NCBI RefSeq assembly: GCF_009914755.1
Contig: NC_060929.1
DNA length: 64,000 bases
DNA from: the human T2T-CHM13v2.0 reference genome, Homo sapiens
Strand: one strand, 5' to 3'
Program-made: the position numbers and the translations under genes
Notes under the pieces: model-generated
What the model saw: the letters and a program-made list of their open reading frames with translations, nothing else
Told to the model about the DNA's origin: nothing
Databases searched by the model: none
Shown here: positions 4,770 through 39,453 of the stretch, piece by piece
How positions within the stretch are numbered: the stretch's first letter is position 1
Layout: each line of letters opens with the position of its first letter

Positions 4770-4930
4770 CTGGACAGCAGGTCTCTGCCTGTGTGACATG
4801 GGTCTCCTTTGGGAATGGTCACTACTCTGTGTGTTATACCCATGCAGAGCACTGCCAACTCTCTACAATGAAAGGTTCCATCCACTGTTCACATCTGGAG
4901 AGACACATCCAGGCTACATACTCAAAGAAA
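4770..4930 (+). pseudogene. ANXA2R-like relic A (C-terminal fragment)
   Basis: Ungapped [23 protein letters not shown] vs ANXA2R VCDSGCLLERRHPPALQPWRHLP (10/23 identical); GACAGCAGG shared just upstream. Confidence 0.55.
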
Positions 4931-4939
4931 TGCTAAAGA

Positions 4940-5241
4940 GGCCGGCCGCGGTGGCTCACGCCTGTAATCCCAGCACTTTGGGAGGCCGAGGCAGGCGGAT
5001 CACGAGGTCAGGAGATCGAGACCATCCTGGCTAACACGGTGAAACCCCGTCTCTACTAAAAATACAGAAAATTAGCCGGGTGTAGTGGCGGGTGCCTGTA
5101 GTCCCAGCTACTTGGGAGGCTAAGGCAGGAGAATGGCATGAACCCGGGAGGCGGAGCTTGCAGTGAGCCACGATCGCGCCACTGCACTCCAGCCTGGGCA
5201 ACAGAGGGAGACTCCGTCTCAAAAAAAAAAAAAAAAAAAAA
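4940..5241 (+). mobile_element. AluY
   Basis: Diagnostic gatcacgaggtcaggagatcgagaccatcctggctaacacgg; TSD aaatgctaaag. Confidence 0.95.
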
Positions 5242-6196
5242 TGCTAAAGCTAGTTTTCTGGGATCACCACTGGTACTTCTCGAGTAATACTGGCATGTAG
5301 GAGTTGCTCCTGCTCTCAGGATTCATTCTCCAGACACCTAGAGTCCATAAACCTTTCACCTAACAAGAGCTTTCAATCTTCTGCCTTCTGTATCTATTCT
5401 GTCATTCTCATTCTGTTTCATTTTTTTCACTTCCTGTTGTATAGTTGCATATTTTCCTTTTTTCTAGTAAAAAGAAGCATGGCTTTGAAGGGAAGCTTCA
5501 ATTCAGACCTTTTCTTTCTGGTCTTCAAATCAGCTCCTGGAATAAACAGAGTTAGCTGTGTTCTGAATGATCTCCTGACAGAGTCTTTATTCTCTCATTA
5601 GTAAGAGTTGTGAAAACTGCAGCCAACTCCTCATCTTTGTATTTGTGGCTCCCTTTATAGCCCCTGGAACACAGAAGGATATCAAAACATGCTTGCTAAA
5701 TGTTGGGATCAATCAGATTTTACCATAGTAAACAATAATGTTTAATTAGGTAATTCTATAATTGTATCCATTGATGCTTTCCAAATAGCATGTTTAACTC
5801 AGACAAATTCCAGTTTCACAGAGGATATGAGAAGGAAAAAAAATCCACAGCAAGAATACAACAAAGAAGGATTCATTTTACATTCGTTCTGATTAAGAAT
5901 ATCTTTCAGTTTATGATAAAATCAACGATAATATTGTTAAAAACTGACCTAATTACTTTCAACCAGATACTGTCCAAACATTAACTTTTTCCATCAAAAG
6001 TATCCCTGATAGTTACTTTGTAAAATGAAAGCACATTTGGCTTCCATTTCTGAGGTGGTTAAAATAAAGGCTACCGGGTTGGATAACTTACAGAGGTTCA
6101 CACATCTAGAATGGCATGTAACCTCTCTGTAACCGAGCCAGTGGGGCCTGAAACTTCTTGCTATTACACACAAGCAGAAGTGTTGAAATCTTTTTT

Positions 6197-35038: not shown

Positions 35039-36015
35039 TGTGGGGGAAATAAAGAGAGATCAGGCTGTTACTGTGTCTATGCAGAAAGAAGAAGACATAA
35101 GAAACTCCATTTTGTTCTGTAGTAAGAAAAATTCTTCTGCCTTGAGATGCTATTAATGTGTAACGCTAGCCCCAACCCTGTGGTCACAGAAATATTTGCT
35201 GTGTTGACTCAAGGTTTAATGGATATAGGGCTGTGCAGGATGTGCTTTGTTAAAAATGTGTTTGCACGCAGTATGCTTGGTAAAAGTCATCACCCTTCTC
35301 TGGTCTCAAGTACCCAGGGACACAATGCACTGTCGAAGGCCACAGGGACCTCTGCCCAAGAACGCCTGGGTATTGTCCAAGGTTTCTCCCCACTGAGACA
35401 GCCTGAGACATGGCCTCGTGGGAAGGGAAAGACCTTACCGTCCCCCAGCCCGATACCCATAAAGGGTCTGTGCTGAGGAGGATTAGTGAAAGAGGAAGGC
35501 CTCTTTGCAGTTGAGATAAGAGGAAGGCATCTGTCTCCTGCTCGTCCCCGGGAATGGAATGTCTTGGTGTAAAACCCGAACGTACATTCTATTTACTGAG
35601 ATGGGAGAAAACTGCCTTATGGCTGGAGGTGAGACATGCTGGCGACAATACTGCTCTTTACTGCACTGAGATGTTTGTGTAAAGTCAAACATAAATCTGG
35701 CCTACAAGCACATCGAGGCACAGCACCTTTCCTTAAACTTATTTATGACACAGAGTCCTTTGTTCACATGTTTTCCTGCTGACCCTCTCCCCACCCTGCC
35801 ACATCCCCCTCACCAAGATAGTAGAGATAGTGATCAATAAATACTGAGGGAACTCAGAGACCAGAGCCGGTGCGGGTCCTCCATATGCTGAGCGCTGGTC
35901 CTCTGGGCCCACTGTTCTTTCTCTATACTTTGTCTCTGTGTCTTATTTCTTTTCTCAGTCTCTCATCACACCTGATGAGAAATACCCACAGGTGTGGAGG
36001 GGCTGGCCCCCTTCA
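35039..36015 (+). mobile_element. HERV-K(HML-2) solo LTR (LTR5A/5B-like) inserted in L1 ORF2
   Basis: tgtgggggaaataaagagagatcag...ggctggcccccttca; TSD aagac. Confidence 0.93.
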
Positions 36016-37573
36016 AAGACAATCCTAAGCAAAAAGAACAAAACTGGAGGCATCATGCTACCTGACTTCAAAGGATACTACAAGGCTACAGTAACCAAAA
36101 CAGCATGGTACTGGTACCAAAACAGAGAGATAAACCAATGGAAGAGAACAGAGCCCTCAGAAATAATACCATACATCTACAACCATCTGATCTTTGACAA
36201 ACCTGACAAAAACAAGAAATGGGGAAAGGATTCCCTATTTAATAAATAGTGCTGGGAAAACTGGCTAGCCATATGTAGAAAGCTAAAACTGGATCCTTTC
36301 CTTACACCTTATACAAAAATTAATTCAAGATGGATTAAAGACTTAAATATTAGACCTAAAAACCATAAAAACCCTAGAAGAAAACCTAGGCAATACCATT
36401 CAGGACACAAGCATGGGCAATGACTTCATGACTAAAACACCAAAAGCAATGGCAACAAAAGCCAAAATTGACAAATGGGATCTAATTAAACTAAAGAGCT
36501 TCTGCACAGCAAAAGAAACCACCATCAGAGTGAAGAGGCAACCTACAGAATGGGAGAAAATTTTTGCAATCTACCCATCTGACAAAGGGCTAATATCCAG
36601 AATCTACAAAGAACTTAAACAAGTTTACAAGAAAAAATCAAACAACCCCATCACAAAGTGGGCAAAGGATATGAACAGACACTTCTCAAAAGAAGACATT
36701 TATGCAGCCAACAGACACATGAAGAAATGCTCATCATCACTGGTCATCAGAGAAATGCAAATCAAAACCACAATGAGATACCATCTCACACCAGTTAGAA
36801 TGACGATCATTAAAAAGTCATGAAACAACAGATGCTGGAGAGGATGTGGAGAAACAGGAACACTCTTACACTGTTGATGGGAGTGTGAATTGGTTCAACC
36901 ATTGCGGAAGACAGTGTGGTGATTCCTCAAGGATCTGGAACTAGAAATACCATTTGATCCAGCCATCCCATTACGGGGTATATACCCAAAGGATTATAAA
37001 TCATGTTACTATAAAGACACATGCACATGTATGTTTACTGCAGCACTATTTACAATAGCAAAGACTTGTAACCAACCCAAATGTCCATCAATGATAGACT
37101 GGATTAAGGAAATGTGGCACATATACACCATGGAATACTATGCAGCCATAAAAAAGGATGAGTTCATGTCCTTTGCAGGGACATGGATGAAACTGGAAAC
37201 CATCATTCTGAGCAAACTACCACAAGGACAGAAAACCAAACACTACACGCTCTCACTCATAGGTGGGAATTGAACAATGAGAACACTTGGACACAGGGTA
37301 GGGAATATCACACACCCAGGCCTGTCATGGGGTGGGGGGAGGGAGGAGGGATAACATTGGGAGGAATATCTAATGTAAATGATGAGTTAATGGGTGCAGC
37401 ACACCAACTTGGCACATGTATATGTATGTAACAAACCTGCACATTGTGCACATGTACACTCGAACTTAAAAGTATAATAAAAAAATTTAAAAAAGAAAGT
37501 AGCATTTTAGAAAACAACTTCTCAATAAATAGCCTATAAACAAAAAAAAAAGTAAAAAGAAAAATAAGTGCAT

Positions 37574-37880
37574 CCTATAGACAACACAACACAATGGGCC
37601 ATGACCCAGCCAGGACATGCCAACCTGTGAAGCTGGACAGATAGATGCCTAGAGCAGAGCCCAGGCTGCCCACAAGAAATTGCTGAAAACTAAGGCTTAG
37701 GACAGACTGGAACCCAGAAAAGAAAGGAACCCCGGTCTTGGTCATGGTTCATGGCACCACTCCTTTATAACAATGCCCTAGAAGAAGCCCATGCACCTCA
37801 GTGGGAGCACTCATGCTGTTCTTGGGGAACCTTCATAGGACTGTGCCCTGCCTTGAGCTGGAAGTCTCTGCAGTAGACAT
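37574..37880 (+). pseudogene. ANXA2R-like relic D, 3' half
   Basis: Anchors to the ANXA2R 3' half: ggacagac, catggcaccactcc ~ CGTGGCGCCACCTCC, catgctgttc ~ CGTGCTGTTC; contiguous with the 5' half once the L1 is removed. Confidence 0.55.
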
Positions 37881-39453
37881 CCTTCCATATTTTGTTCTTC
37901 ATCTTCTGAACGCCTTCAAGGTTTTTCAATTGGAAAAATTCTATCTGCATAATCAACAATGTGCTAAGGAACTCTACTTTTAGATCTTCTTAGAATTCAT
38001 AGTTCTTTGTACATGAGGATTAAAGCATTCTTCTGTATTCTCCACTTGTGAAATAGATTTGAGGTTGGTGGAGTCAGGATTGGAAACACATACAGGTGGG
38101 CAGGGGCATGAAAGGGACTGGGACCCAGATCAGAGCTGGAGGCTGAACTCCAGGGAGCCTTTGAATAGCTATGGATATCACCAGGGTGGGAAGGGACAGT
38201 GCTCCACTGTCCTGGGATTCTCTTGAAACTGAGCTTGGCCTCCCTGCTGAGAGCAGAGAACAACCATCAATAAATATTCCTTCAATGGTCTGAAGTTTAC
38301 GTTTACAGGGTGGAGGTGGAAATTAAATTTAGGGAGCCATGAGGAAGACCCCCAGCCCTGTGCCTTTTGAATTGACAACCATGGCATTTCAGGGCATCAG
38401 CTCCAGGTCAGGCATTCTCAGGCAGTTGCATAATTCTGCCAATGTGGGGCCCGCCCACCTCAAAAATCCACATGGATTGGATCCAGCAAAACCAAATATT
38501 CAGCAAAACTTCAAGATCTAGCAACACTGAAGGCTCAAGTACATCACCGGTGCATACTTGGCCCAAGGAGGCTATTCTCTCACAATCTCTACCCAGCTCC
38601 GGGCCTGCAGCATCTGAGACTCACTCCTTCAAGCTGCAGGTATCCCAGGAAAAAGATTTATGCATCCTCATAGCTTCAACATGCAGTGTGTCAGGCACAG
38701 AAAAATGGTTGTCTTCAGAAAGTGATAAAAAAAACATGCAGTAGCAATCACCCTTTGGACTTTGAAACTTTTCTGTCACCTTAGATGTCAGAAACTAAAA
38801 CCCAGAAACTTGGTGTTGGCATTAATTTGGTCTAGCTATGAAGACTTTTTTTTTTTTTTTTTTCACACAGTGACAGTTCTGAATTTGAATATAAAGGAGC
38901 TTAGGTGCTATAATCTGAATGGAACGTGGGAATAAAACTGTCTTTGCCTTGTACTTCTTGTTAGATTAATTAAATACCAATTATCAGTATAAGAAAATGG
39001 CAATAAATTGTCAAAGTGGAATTGGAAAGTGTTTTTAGGATTTGGATATGAAGCAGGCTTCCCATGTGACCATTCTCACTTCTTATTCTGAAGTCTAACA
39101 CTCTGCTTTTCTTTCTCTCCCTCTCTTCATTGATTCTTCTAGTGGCTGGTGTTTGGGTATTGTGGGAACTGAGCTTTCATCTCCTATGTTAGCCATAGAG
39201 ATGAGGGCTTTGAGGGCACCATGGAATCCGATTGCTGGAAATAAATCAATCTTAAAGGAAAGGAAAATTTAAAAATCAGGTGCAACAAAAGCAAAATGAG
39301 AAAACTGCTAAACTCTACAATTCTATAAAGAAGAATTGCATAAAAAGGAAATAACAGGAAAAGGTAAGAAAATTTAAAAGGATATCAGAAAATATAGCAT
39401 ACAGGGTCAGAAAGATTTGAGAATATGACGAGATGGTTTTAGAAGGCAGGATG

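What the first reader, a model, noticed from the sequence alone, without database searches (positions are those of the whole stretch)
4770..38270. Hidden ANXA2R multigene cluster: one intact gene plus at least four decayed paralogs
Seen: much of the unique DNA left between transposons aligns by eye to the ANXA2R CDS. Relics lie at 4770-4930 (+, C-terminal), 7286-7440 (+, N-terminal), 10767-11360 (+, near full length) and 30229-30543/37574-37880 (+, split by L1), with a tentative copy near 38050-38270 (-). Recurring motifs are M(E/K)xH, AWDS/ARDS, PxPxxPP, LPxxPxL and CDxG. None has introns. The 5' flanks of B and C match each other, and that of D matches ANXA2R, so these look like local DNA duplications rather than dispersed retrocopies. 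Known: ANXA2R is usually treated as a single-copy orphan gene. Inference: it is the survivor of a birth-and-death tandem family. I recall, unverified, that the mouse region near Zfp131 holds the multicopy 2-cell-stage Tcstv genes, which could be distant relatives.
Basis: partly seen in the sequence, partly recalled or inferred. Interest (0 to 1): 0.9.

Follow-up and report, generated by a model that had tools for sequence, protein, structure and literature searches.

The report
Decayed ANXA2R/RESIST gene cluster, chr5p12
Around the single working human ANXA2R (RESIST) gene lie the decayed remains of many local copies of it and of a sister gene family, so this antiviral regulator is the survivor of an old, repeatedly duplicated gene cluster.

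Summary
Partly confirmed, and larger than claimed. Three of the five listed relics are real. B (7163-7436,+) and C (10616-11387,+) are decayed ANXA2R paralogs. Family profile scores are 22.8 and 43.2 bits against a control maximum of 8.9. nhmmer gives E 4e-7 and 4e-20, with no hit in the reversed window. It belongs to a separate, Pfam-less mammalian protein family that is only remotely ANXA2R-like. A (4770-4930) and E (38050-38270,-) show no signal. All copies lie on chr5 at 43.19-43.36 Mb and share flanks, so they arose by local DNA duplication, not retroposition. A scan of 194 kb found 12 ANXA2R-like places, one marginal, plus a third D copy. The divergence tiers are K2P about 0.11-0.16, 0.18-0.21, 0.42-0.47 and 0.67. 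The CpG-island region upstream of ANXA2R is also duplicated (17580-22418 matches 41691-45424) and underlies neighbouring lncRNAs. None of the relics is in the RefSeq table, and a 2025 Nature paper calls human ANXA2R a single gene. The Tcstv link found no support in the indirect tests available. This is a new case of a familiar kind, birth-and-death evolution of an immune gene.

The parts
16327..16908 (-). Intact ANXA2R (RESIST) coding sequence, 193 codons in a single exon.
   Evidence: Translation. Pfam PF15721 at E 3.5e-93.
16230..17089 (-). The ANXA2R 'unit' that is detectably shared with the relics: about 180 nt upstream of the ATG (including a TATA-like AGAGCATAAATAC motif), the CDS and the 3' UTR.
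   Evidence: nhmmer extents. Three-way alignment.
6788..7285 (+). 5' flank of relic B, homologous to the 5' flank of C.
   Evidence: 6845-7432 aligns to 10330-10882 at 68.7% over 591 nt. 6788-6861 aligns to 7466-7542.
7286..7436 (+). Relic B, holding only the N-terminal ~45 codons. Its features:
- ATG at 7286.
- An imperfect ~30-nt tandem duplication near 7296-7354.
- A frame shift.
- A TAG at 7366-7368.
- It ends abruptly at 7437.
- CpG observed/expected (o/e) is 0.
7438..7544 (+). Copy of the distal 5' flank, that is, the start of unit C. It directly abuts the truncated B, so B was probably born truncated by a ~650-bp tandem duplication. Younger insertions at 7546-10300 now separate this piece from the rest of unit C.
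   Evidence: nhmmer: 7466-7542 matches 6788-6861, and 7439-7533 matches 74070-73976(-). The reading of B's origin is inference.
10330..11411 (+). Relic C, a near full-length unit of 5' flank plus CDS-like 10767-~11350 plus 3' part. Its features:
- The start codon is GTG at 10767.
- A 2-nt frameshift near 10828.
- In-frame stops at 10969 (TGA) and 11104.
- It is still CpG-rich (o/e 0.60).
- It lies under RefSeq 'enhancer' features 10575-11652 (hub table).
29896..30553 (+). Relic D, 5' half. It is a dead copy of the D family. The coding-like part runs about 30199-30537 and has several stops. CpG o/e is 0.03.
   Evidence: 32.2 bits against the D-family HMM.
30554..37562 (+). LINE-1 insertion that splits D. 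It carries a further ~1-kb insertion near 35033-36016. A poly-A tail and a flanking direct repeat are present.
   Evidence: The name L1 comes from the recalled 5' UTR sequence and from the hub's repeat mask.
37563..38270 (+). Relic D, 3' half and 3' flank.
   Evidence: 9.8 bits for 37593-37796.
17580..22418 (.). S1, the region upstream of ANXA2R with CpG islands (o/e 0.91-0.95). It holds the ANXA2R alternative first exon and ANXA2R-AS1, and it is one member of a locally duplicated block.
41691..45424 (.). S2, an old direct copy of S1. It now carries LOC100132356, ANXA2R-OT1 exons and the start of LOC100506639. No coding relic was detected below it.
   Evidence: E 4e-42 to 7e-128. K2P 0.22-0.42. 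HMM scans.
14299..15232 (.). S3, a weak third copy of part of S1 (17696-18856), lying just downstream of ANXA2R.
   Evidence: nhmmer at E 1.3e-7 and 2.5e-7.
4770..4930 (+).

Best explanation
The window lies inside an old, locally duplicated gene cluster on chr5p12, at about chr5:43.19-43.36 Mb of T2T-CHM13. Its only recognised working member is ANXA2R (RESIST).

How the cluster formed:
- A unit made of a CpG-island upstream region plus a single-exon gene was copied again and again, in tandem and inverted, by DNA-level segmental duplication. The divergence figures fall into several tiers.
- Some copies were partial from birth. B holds the promoter plus ~45 codons. R4 and R3a, both outside the window, hold the upstream region plus ~60 codons.
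- Other copies were full length and later died by start loss, frameshift, stops, CpG decay and transposon insertion (C and D).

Two sequence families share the cluster. One is the ANXA2R family (Pfam PF15721). The other is a Pfam-less 'D' family that is only remotely similar to it.

The coding parts decayed, but several duplicated CpG islands and promoters stayed active and now carry lncRNAs or annotated enhancers.

What is shown: the homologies, the coordinates, the disabling lesions and the restriction to one locus. What is inferred: the order and age of the events, the regulatory afterlife of the relics, and the idea that turnover was driven by the gene's antiviral role.
For: 1. Family membership of B and C. 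A profile HMM of 29 ANXA2R proteins run against the six-frame window gave ANXA2R 321.5 bits, C 41.8, B 13.5, the next best -1.6, and a reversed-window best of -0.6. PF15721 itself gives C 43.6 bits, over its cut-off of 27.

2. DNA level. The ANXA2R CDS hits C at E 4.1e-20 and B at E 4.1e-7, with 0 hits in the reversed window. B aligns to C at 68.7% over 591 nt, including ~440 nt of 5' flank.

3. Locality.
- PF15721 against the whole genome gave 10 matches. Six are on chr5 at 43.197-43.349 Mb, with E 7e-90 to 2.1. The four on other chromosomes have E 0.15-6.4.
- The C unit has 6 of 6 matches on chr5 at 43.195-43.287 Mb.
- The upstream segment 18706-19471 has 6 of 6 matches on chr5 at 43.20-43.32 Mb.

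4. Cluster size. A tile scan of 194 kb found 12 places above the maximum (9.0 bits) of 3162 reversed-control scores. One of them is marginal (10.3 bits), and one is the outside D copy (15.4 bits).

5. Divergence tiers, K2P.
- C/C2/C3 0.14-0.16, and B/B3 0.11.
- ANXA2R/R4/R3a 0.18-0.19, and S1 against its copy near -72 kb 0.21.
- B/C 0.42, S1/S2 0.22-0.42, and D1 and D2 against the outside D copy 0.44-0.47.
- ANXA2R/C 0.67.

6. Lesions. C, C2 and C3 share a 2-nt frameshift and a TGA, so the lineage was dead before it was re-duplicated. D is split by an L1.

7. The D family.
- The outside copy has an open 238-codon ORF.
- It has 34 library relatives at E<=1e-3.
- The D-family HMM scores D1 at 32.2 bits. 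Its next-best non-D hits are the ANXA2R-type relics C (2.8) and C4 (2.7), against a reversed-control maximum of -2.0.
- The D DNA profile hits ANXA2R 16984-16673(-) at E 0.0035, with none in the reversed control.
- Cross-family HMM scores beat all 20 own shuffles for 10 of 31 and 16 of 66 proteins, where about 1.5 and 3 are expected.

8. Regulatory afterlife.
- CpG observed/expected is 0.60-0.69 in C/C2/C3 and 0.91-0.99 in the islands of S1 and S2, against 0-0.07 in B, C4 and D.
- The hub table places enhancers on C and lncRNA exons on S1 and S2.

9. Family turnover elsewhere.
- Two tandem mouse genes, Resist1/2 (PMC12310523, passages read).
- An expansion in horseshoe bats (PMC13500052, passage read).
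- Two proteins on one contig in a rhinoceros and in a bat.
Against: - With the single human protein and composition-corrected tblastn, no relic is significant: B has E 0.12 and C has E 9.5.
- The ANXA2R-to-D link is weak at the protein level. Pfam finds nothing in the 238-aa ORF. hhalign gives E 0.0017 and 0.0042, with probabilities of only 15% and 8%. My second, larger HMM scores the ORF at -1.3 bits, and 774 of 2000 shuffles do as well.
- Homology between ANXA2R and C runs from 17089 to about 16229. That is almost the span of the RefSeq mRNA (17181-16233), as a retrocopy would show.
- No repeat library (RepeatMasker or Dfam) was available, so shared flanks could in part be old transposons.
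- Ages rest on recalled neutral divergences. No other mammalian genome could be read.
- No relic showed clear affinity to any particular non-primate protein, so orthology with living genes elsewhere is open.
- The whole-genome searches score only the best candidates. B itself was not listed, so 'nothing elsewhere' is a lower bound.
Confidence: 0.85

Rival explanations
1. The relics are processed retrocopies of ANXA2R mRNA that happened to land near the parent gene.
For: - The parent CDS is a single exon, so the lack of introns says nothing either way.
- The detectable ANXA2R-to-C homology (17089 to about 16229) nearly coincides with the RefSeq transcript (17181-16233, hub table).
Against: - Every significant copy lies within about 165 kb on chr5, and none lies elsewhere.
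- B, C, C4 and B2 share 400-500 nt of 5' flank with one another.
- R4 and R3a share about 1.8 kb of upstream sequence with ANXA2R.
- No poly-A tract follows C or C3 in the alignment.
- Whole multi-kb blocks around the relics are duplicated together.
Confidence: 0.04
2. The similarities are chance or compositional matches between proline-rich, GC-rich stretches, so there is no cluster.
For: - Composition-corrected tblastn with the human protein alone gives E 0.12 or worse.
- A and E are indeed noise.
- D alone scores only 1.8-2.9 bits against the ANXA2R profile.
Against: - Reversed-sequence controls never exceed 9.0 bits, while B, C and nine other places score 15-115 bits.
- nhmmer E values reach 4e-20, with no hits in the reversed controls.
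- Pfam's own model passes its curated cut-off on C and on R4.
- The hits cluster in about 0.005% of the genome.
Confidence: 0.02
3. D, and the D family, is unrelated to ANXA2R. It is a separate gene family that merely sits in the same duplicated region, so the window holds only two true ANXA2R relics.
For: - Pfam finds no family in the 238-aa ORF.
- hhalign probabilities are 15% and 8%.
- The second HMM gives no signal.
- Of the 20 proteins scanned, 19 with E<=1.2e-5 and P0100 at E 2.9e-4, 18 show no PF15721 match. One of the two matches is in a protein that looks like a fused prediction.
Against: - Reciprocal weak hits fall on the right strand and are collinear. The D DNA profile hits ANXA2R at E 0.0035. 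The outside D copy hits C2 and C3 at E 0.001 and 0.0046, with the ATGs placed within about 15 nt.
- The best non-D hits of the D HMM are the relics C and C4.
- Cross-family scores are enriched over shuffles in both directions.
- The first HMM scores 13.9 bits, and 0 of 2000 shuffles reach it.
- Both are single-exon ORFs of about 200 codons that open with M-E-x-H and share (A/G)PEP...W..L..(F/Y)P(V/A)L.
Confidence: 0.2

Closest known systems
Mouse Resist1/Resist2 (Gm21188/Gm36079), tandem paralogues of ANXA2R/RESIST (PMC12310523, passages read)
   Same: It is the same protein family (PF15721), as the rodent homologs show. It also has more than one copy side by side at one locus.
   Different: The mouse copies are nearly identical and both intact. 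The human extra copies are old (K2P 0.11-0.67) and dead or truncated. The paper states that human ANXA2R 'is encoded by a single gene'.
ANXA2R expansion in horseshoe bats with dose-dependent antiviral effect (reported in the review PMC13500052, one passage read; the primary paper was not seen)
   Same: It is lineage-specific copy-number change of the same gene. One search also shows two 'annexin-2 receptor-like' proteins on one contig in a phyllostomid bat and in a black rhinoceros.
   Different: Those are living expansions. The human locus shows the loss phase, where relics remain.
Classical birth-and-death multigene clusters of immune genes (recalled as a general model; no call)
   Same: Repeated local duplication, pseudogenes interspersed with a survivor, different copy numbers between lineages, and an immune function for the survivor.
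   Different: Here only one member survives in human. The relics are below the 90% identity used by segmental-duplication maps (a recalled threshold), and none is annotated as a pseudogene in the hub's RefSeq table.
Mouse Tcstv 2-cell-stage gene cluster (PMC4728397, passages read: subtelomeric chr13, multicopy)
   Same: It is a multicopy cluster of small single-exon-like genes. This placement was not verified by any search.
   Different: No sequence link was found.
- No paper holds both names.
- None of the 27 hits of a rodent ANXA2R profile is named Tcstv.
- The published Tcstv1 epitope is absent from the 34 D-family proteins.
- The epitope aligns to them no better than shuffled peptides do: 68 of 300 shuffles do as well.

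Membership tests
Pfam PF15721 (ANXA2R / RESIST family) | Score over Pfam's gathering cut-off (27 bits): relic C | tested here: met
   43.6 bits over model positions 22-163, with 2 stops read through. My own HMM gives 41.8 bits.
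Pfam PF15721 (ANXA2R / RESIST family) | Score over Pfam's gathering cut-off: relic B | tested here: inconclusive
   B was not listed in the whole-genome Pfam run, which scores only the best candidates. My own HMM gives 13.5 bits as a domain and 22.8 bits as a tile, against a control maximum of 8.9. nhmmer to the ANXA2R CDS gives E 4.1e-7. Only about 45 codons are present.
Pfam PF15721 (ANXA2R / RESIST family) | Score over Pfam's gathering cut-off: relic D and the intact D-type ORF | tested here: not met
   Pfam finds 0 families for the 238-aa ORF at E<=10. 2 of 20 D-family proteins give sub-threshold matches of 17-18 bits. D is therefore filed as a sister family, not as a member.
Pfam PF15721 (ANXA2R / RESIST family) | Intact C-terminal region, shown to be needed for RESIST function (PMC12310523) | tested here: not met
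   B ends at about codon 45. C has a frameshift and two stops. Only ANXA2R itself is intact.
D family (unnamed mammalian proteins, no Pfam) | Significant match to a profile of the family, with the AWAWALDNF-type core | tested here: met
   D1 30296-30433 scores 32.2 bits and D2 37593-37796 scores 9.8 bits, against a reversed-control maximum of -2.0. The family has 34 proteins at E<=1e-3. The alignment is A3.
Processed pseudogene (retrocopy) | Dispersed location, poly-A tail, and no homology upstream of the parent's transcription start | tested here: not met
   All copies are local. R4 and R3a share 1.8 kb of upstream sequence. B and C share 5' flanks. No poly-A follows C. For ANXA2R against C alone, the homology does stop inside the transcript, so that single pair is not decisive.
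Catalogued segmental duplication (at least 1 kb at 90% identity or more; threshold recalled) | Identity of 90% or more over at least 1 kb | tested here: not met
   Relic-bearing blocks are 66-88% identical. B/B3 is 90% identical over only 465 nt. This probably explains why the cluster is not flagged.
Birth-and-death multigene cluster | Several paralogs at one locus, pseudogenes among them, and copy number differing between lineages | tested here: met
   12 places in 194 kb. Other species have 2 or more copies (PMC12310523; PMC13500052). Papio and Chlorocebus proteins are only 76% identical, implying two living paralogs in Old World monkeys (inference).
Tcstv family (mouse 2-cell genes) | Sequence homology to Tcstv1/Tcstv3 | not testable with these tools
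   No tool supplied a Tcstv sequence. The indirect tries gave nothing.

The most novel reading that the evidence does not exclude
ANXA2R/RESIST and the Pfam-less D family are two arms of one ancient eutherian tandem family. Human still carries living products of it besides ANXA2R:
- An unannotated, open 238-codon D-type gene 52 kb upstream of the window. It could be the human counterpart of the mouse Tcstv 2-cell genes.
- A 72-codon RESIST N-terminal ORF inside the lncRNA LOC105374748.
- CpG-rich dead copies (C, C2, C3) that now act as enhancers of the locus.
Probability: 0.15. Interest if true: 0.8.

Novelty: new member of a known kind. Interest (0 to 1): 0.55.

Why it matters
ANXA2R was recently re-identified as RESIST. 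It inhibits the CCR4-NOT deadenylase, stabilises interferon-beta mRNA and has antiviral effects (PMC12310523, passages read). That paper describes the human gene as single-copy.

The human gene in fact sits among more than ten dead or truncated copies. Related mammals keep two or more living copies. Together these place RESIST among the fast-turnover immune genes.

The finding gives a concrete set of loci for dating gains and losses across primates. It also explains why the locus is full of lncRNAs and 'enhancers': they are duplicated CpG islands and promoters. It flags two open reading frames (238 and 72 codons, both outside the window) that deserve expression and binding tests.

The finding does not change what ANXA2R does, and the kind of evolution is familiar.

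Tried and rejected
- Single-sequence tblastn with composition correction was too weak.
I scanned frames with X at stops in scripts instead.
- A DNA HMM built from 11 units and the tail of the D profile picked up Alu pieces that I had included by mistake. Those Alu hits were ignored and only the non-Alu rows were used.
- The tile scan timed out once. I repeated it with one HMM only.
- Relic A: nhmmer at E<=1 finds only its own duplicated blocks. Rejected.
- Relic E: there is no minus-strand signal with either family HMM. Rejected as a separate copy.
- A coding relic below S2 (about 40000-41700,-) or below S3: none rose above the controls.
- Sub-threshold tiles at 19201-19680(-) and 26161-26641(+) scored 7.2-8.0 bits, under the control maximum. 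They are not claimed.
- Assigning relics to living orthologs by best tblastn score: no clear affinity. All non-primate scores fall within 27-43 bits.
- Test for selection on the 238-codon ORF. Its lineage-specific changes are spread evenly over the codon positions (22/26/20), and the rate inside the ORF (68 of 616 sites) is like the rate outside (34 of 268). So there is no sign of protein-level constraint, even though the frame is open. This is unresolved.
- Tcstv:
  - No paper holds both names.
  - The rodent profile search gave 27 hits, all PF15721 and none named Tcstv. Only 8000 candidates were scored.
  - The epitope motif is absent from 34 of 34 D-family proteins.
  - The epitope aligns no better than shuffles: 68 of 300 do as well.
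  - The paper's supplementary tables were not opened.
- Protein Atlas: the ANXA2R query gave no usable hit outside PF15721. The D-family queries were not held.
- The bacterial promoter/terminator scan on relic C is irrelevant to a human locus and was not used.
- One literature search was badly framed and returned unrelated papers. Searches replaced it: ANXA2R with 'duplicat' gave 28 papers, and ANXA2R with 'pseudogene' gave 5. By title and abstract, none is about paralogs of the human gene. Only PMC12310523 and PMC13500052 were opened.

Full report
**Starting point.** The annotated ANXA2R CDS (16327-16908, minus strand) translates to an open 193-residue protein. It matches Pfam PF15721 at E 3.5e-93. 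The question was whether the 'unique' DNA around it holds decayed copies at five named places.

**First tests.** tblastn with the human protein and no composition correction gave 10804-11088(+) at E 5e-5 and 7339-7428(+) at E 0.015. With composition correction both fell to noise: E 9.5 and E 0.12. A single fast-evolving, proline-rich query is therefore not enough. I collected 28 homologs and later 60. All carry PF15721, and they span primates, rodents, bats, ungulates, carnivores, elephant and armadillo.

A profile of 29 of them, run over the six-frame window with stops read as X, scored as follows:
- ANXA2R: 321.5 bits.
- 10831-11280(+): 41.8 bits, over model positions 23-171.
- 7339-7428(+): 13.5 bits.
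- The next best place: -1.6 bits.
- The reversed window: at most -0.6 bits.

**Claim-by-claim test.** I cut the window into 360-nt tiles and scored all six frames. The control was the reversed sequence, which gave 1022 tile scores with a maximum of 8.9 bits.

| Claimed relic | Best tile score | Control tiles reaching it |
|---|---|---|
| B | 22.8 bits | none |
| C | 43.2 bits | none |
| A | 0.3 bits | 14.6% |
| D1 | 1.8 bits | 5.2% |
| D2 | 2.9 bits | 2.4% |
| E | 1.8 bits | 5.2% |

At the DNA level, nhmmer with the ANXA2R CDS hit C (10781-11273, E 4.1e-20) and B (7326-7437, E 4.1e-7). It hit nothing else and nothing in the reversed window. The C-to-ANXA2R homology extends to 17089, about 180 nt upstream of the ATG, where all three copies keep a TATA-like motif. 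B and C share their 5' flanks: 6845-7432 aligns to 10330-10882 at 68.7% over 591 nt, E 7.6e-69.

**Anatomy of B and C.**

B:
- It starts with ATG at 7286 (M-K-Q-H-F).
- It carries an imperfect ~30-nt tandem duplication.
- It shifts frame into ...VHQAWDSTD, has a TAG at 7366-7368, and stops being homologous at 7437.
- The next 107 nt (7438-7544) are a copy of the distal 5' flank (6788-6861), that is, the beginning of the next unit. I infer that B was born truncated, by a ~650-bp tandem duplication of the promoter plus about 45 codons.

C:
- It is near full length.
- Its start codon is GTG (10767), whereas its sister copies C2 and C3 keep ATG.
- It has a 2-nt frameshift near 10828 and in-frame stops at 10969 and 11104.
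- The frameshift and the TGA are shared by C, C2 and C3, so the lineage was already dead before those three copies separated.

**Relic D.** D became clear only after I looked outside the window. The tools hold the window's genome (T2T chr5), so I fetched chr5:43186001-43380000 and repeated the scans.
- One uninterrupted copy at window -52458..-50996 aligns with D1 (29896-30546, E 1e-61) and, continuing 25 nt later, with D2 (37602-38270).
- The sequence between D1 and D2 begins with a dispersed repeat. All 39 non-self matches scored fall on other places and cover only 30553-30677.
- It ends in a poly-A and is flanked by a direct repeat.

The outside copy has an ATG-started open frame of 238 codons. 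That ORF has 34 relatives at E<=1e-3 in the 1.84-billion-protein library, including a 238-residue protein that differs at one residue. Pfam names nothing in it. A profile of 20 of these proteins scores D1 at 32.2 bits, D2 at 9.8 bits and a third copy (79900-79652, minus) at 9.6 bits. D is thus a dead member of a distinct, unnamed mammalian family.

**Is the D family related to ANXA2R?** The evidence for a link is weak but points one way.
- The D DNA profile hits ANXA2R 16984-16673(-) at E 0.0035, with nothing in the reversed control.
- The outside D copy hits C2 and C3 collinearly at E 0.001 and 0.0046, with the start codons placed within about 15 nt.
- After its own copies, the D protein profile's best hits in 194 kb are the ANXA2R-type relics C and C4, at 2.8 and 2.7 bits against a control maximum of -2.0.
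- Cross-family HMM scores beat all of their own shuffles for 10 of 31 and 16 of 66 proteins.

Against a link:
- hhalign probabilities are only 15% and 8%.
- My larger HMM sees nothing.
- Pfam does not reach its cut-off.

I put remote common ancestry at about 0.8.

**Scale of the cluster.** The tile scan of 194 kb found 12 places above the control maximum of 9.0 bits, taken from 3162 control scores.

| Place (window coordinates) | Name | Best bits |
|---|---|---|
| -81.0 kb | B3 | 22.8 |
| -79.1 kb | C3 | 19.9 |
| -58.9 kb | B2 | 27.5 |
| -52.3 kb | outside D copy | 15.4 |
| -29.3 kb, minus strand | marginal | 10.3 |
| -28.3 kb | R3a | 44.4 |
| -23.4 kb | C2 | 21.5 |
| -3.2 kb | R4 | 114.7 |
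| 7081-7680 | B | 22.8 |
| 10681-11400 | C | 43.2 |
| 16081-17160, minus strand | ANXA2R | 228.7 |
| +73.1 kb, minus strand | C4 | 37.6 |

Pfam's own model, run over the whole genome, gave 10 matches. Six lie on chr5 at 43.197-43.349 Mb, and three of those are over the cut-off: ANXA2R at 311 bits, R4 at 88.4 and C at 43.6. The other four, on chromosomes 11, 9, 10 and 6, have E 0.15-6.4. The C unit and the upstream segment 18706-19471 each have 6 of 6 genome matches inside the same 150 kb. These searches score only the best candidates, so the counts are lower bounds. Even so, the pattern is local DNA duplication, not a dispersed repeat or retroposition.

**Larger blocks and ages.** Multi-kb blocks are duplicated together:
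- Window 4627-27739 matches -83133..-62541.
- Window -4711..13804 matches -29864..-20332.
- Window 40553-42981 matches -16276..-13872.

The region upstream of ANXA2R, with its CpG islands (S1, 17580-22418), has an old direct copy at 41691-45424 (S2) and a faint one at 14299-15232.

| Pair | K2P distance |
|---|---|
| B/B3 | 0.11 |
| C/C2/C3 | 0.14-0.16 |
| ANXA2R/R4/R3a | 0.18-0.19 |
| S1 against its -72 kb copy | 0.21 |
| B/C, most of S1/S2, D against its paralog | 0.42-0.47 |
| ANXA2R/C | 0.67 |

Using recalled neutral divergences, this suggests waves from before or around the eutherian radiation down to early anthropoids. This dating is inference only, because no other mammalian genome could be read.

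**What survives.** CpG observed/expected is 0.60-0.69 in C, C2 and C3 and 0.91-0.99 in the S1 and S2 islands. It is 0-0.07 in B, B3, C4, D1 and D2. The hub's table puts RefSeq enhancers at 10575-11652, on relic C. It puts lncRNA exons on paralogous parts of S1 (ANXA2R-AS1 and the ANXA2R alternative first exon) and of S2 (LOC100132356, ANXA2R-OT1, LOC100506639). I infer that the duplicated promoters and islands outlived the coding parts and account for the density of lncRNAs.

**Known context.**
- PMC12310523 (Nature 2025; passages read) renames ANXA2R as RESIST. It describes it as a CCR4-NOT inhibitor that stabilises IFNB1 mRNA. It says the human protein 'is encoded by a single gene', while mouse has two tandem paralogues.
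- A review (PMC13500052; one passage read) reports an ANXA2R expansion in horseshoe bats.
- One search shows two family members on one contig in a rhinoceros and in a bat.
- Papio and Chlorocebus proteins are only 76% identical, which implies two living paralogs in Old World monkeys.
- Literature searches for ANXA2R with Tcstv (0 papers), 'duplicat' (28) and 'pseudogene' (5) turned up nothing on human paralogs. Only titles and abstracts were seen for most of these.
- The hub's RefSeq table lists no pseudogene at any relic.

**Tcstv.** No Tcstv sequence could be obtained from a tool, so homology is untested.
- A rodent ANXA2R profile search returned 27 hits, all PF15721 and none named Tcstv.
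- The published Tcstv1 epitope is absent from the D-family proteins.
- It aligns to them no better than shuffled peptides do.
- PMC4728397 (passages read) says only that the Tcstv cluster is subtelomeric on mouse chromosome 13.

**Verdict.** The main inference stands and is stronger than proposed: these are local DNA duplications, and ANXA2R is the survivor of a birth-and-death cluster. It is a new, apparently undescribed instance of a well-known evolutionary pattern. It is of moderate interest because the surviving gene is a newly recognised antiviral regulator.

Noticed in passing
outside the window: window -3031..-2813 (chr5:43272970-43273188,+), locus L008: R4 is an ATG-started open frame of 72 codons. 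Its first 63 residues are 81% identical to the ANXA2R N-terminus and include the conserved WPLP(F/L)YPVLGE stretch. PF15721 scores it at 88.4 bits with no stops. It lies inside the span of the lncRNA LOC105374748, in an inverted ~1.9-kb copy of the ANXA2R upstream region plus 5' CDS (80% identical). It lacks the C-terminal region that the RESIST paper found essential.
   Followed up: partly
outside the window: L020:7874-8590 (chr5:43223874-43224590,+; window -52126..-51410): An open 238-codon ORF of the D family, with no gene at this place in the hub's RefSeq table. A 238-residue protein differing at one residue exists in the public protein library. There are 34 relatives at E<=1e-3 and no Pfam family. 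Its lineage-specific substitutions are spread evenly over the codon positions (22/26/20), so its coding status is unclear.
   Followed up: partly
17580-22418 and 41691-45424: An old direct duplication of the ANXA2R upstream region. The CpG islands are 81% identical (18706-19471 against 43054-43822), while the rest is about 68% identical. ANXA2R-AS1 and LOC100506639 run over paralogous sequence, as do the ANXA2R alternative first exon and the LOC100132356 / ANXA2R-OT1 exons. The better-kept island suggests either constraint or gene conversion.
   Followed up: partly
7939-9415 and 20320-21159: A long AT-rich simple-repeat block downstream of B (it reads as YIIYN... in every frame). It is 79-81% similar, in inverted orientation, to 20320-21155 inside S1.
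   Followed up: no
35033-36016, 53922-54914, 63548-63871: A low-copy element. 35033-36016 aligns to 54914-53922 at 89%. A ~325-nt end piece recurs at 35040-35362, 54582-54906 and 63548-63871, and outside the window near -42 kb. It looks like an LTR-type repeat, and one copy sits inside the L1 that splits D.
   Followed up: no
whole window: CpG observed/expected is 0.41 over the whole 64 kb at 43% G+C. By recall this is high for human DNA, and it fits the many duplicated CpG islands.
   Followed up: no
protein P0077 (library hit, species unknown): A 205-residue predicted protein starts with an ANXA2R-type N-terminus (…CHCVKQAWDSAE) and continues as a D-family protein. It is probably a gene-model fusion of neighbours, which would mean that the two families are adjacent in that species too.
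   Followed up: no
proteins P0003 (Papio) and P0006 (Chlorocebus): Both are full length (193-194 aa) but only 76% identical to each other. That is too low for orthologs of two cercopithecines, so Old World monkeys probably keep two living paralogs. The human relic R3a shares the 'VKP' state with the P0006 type, which is weak evidence.
   Followed up: partly
ANXA2R CDS nt 442-484 (about 16425-16467): Many short blastn and tblastn matches of this stretch, and of residues 106-119, fall on Alu copies across the window. This is probably chance similarity to Alu, and it inflated the low-level hit lists.
   Followed up: no
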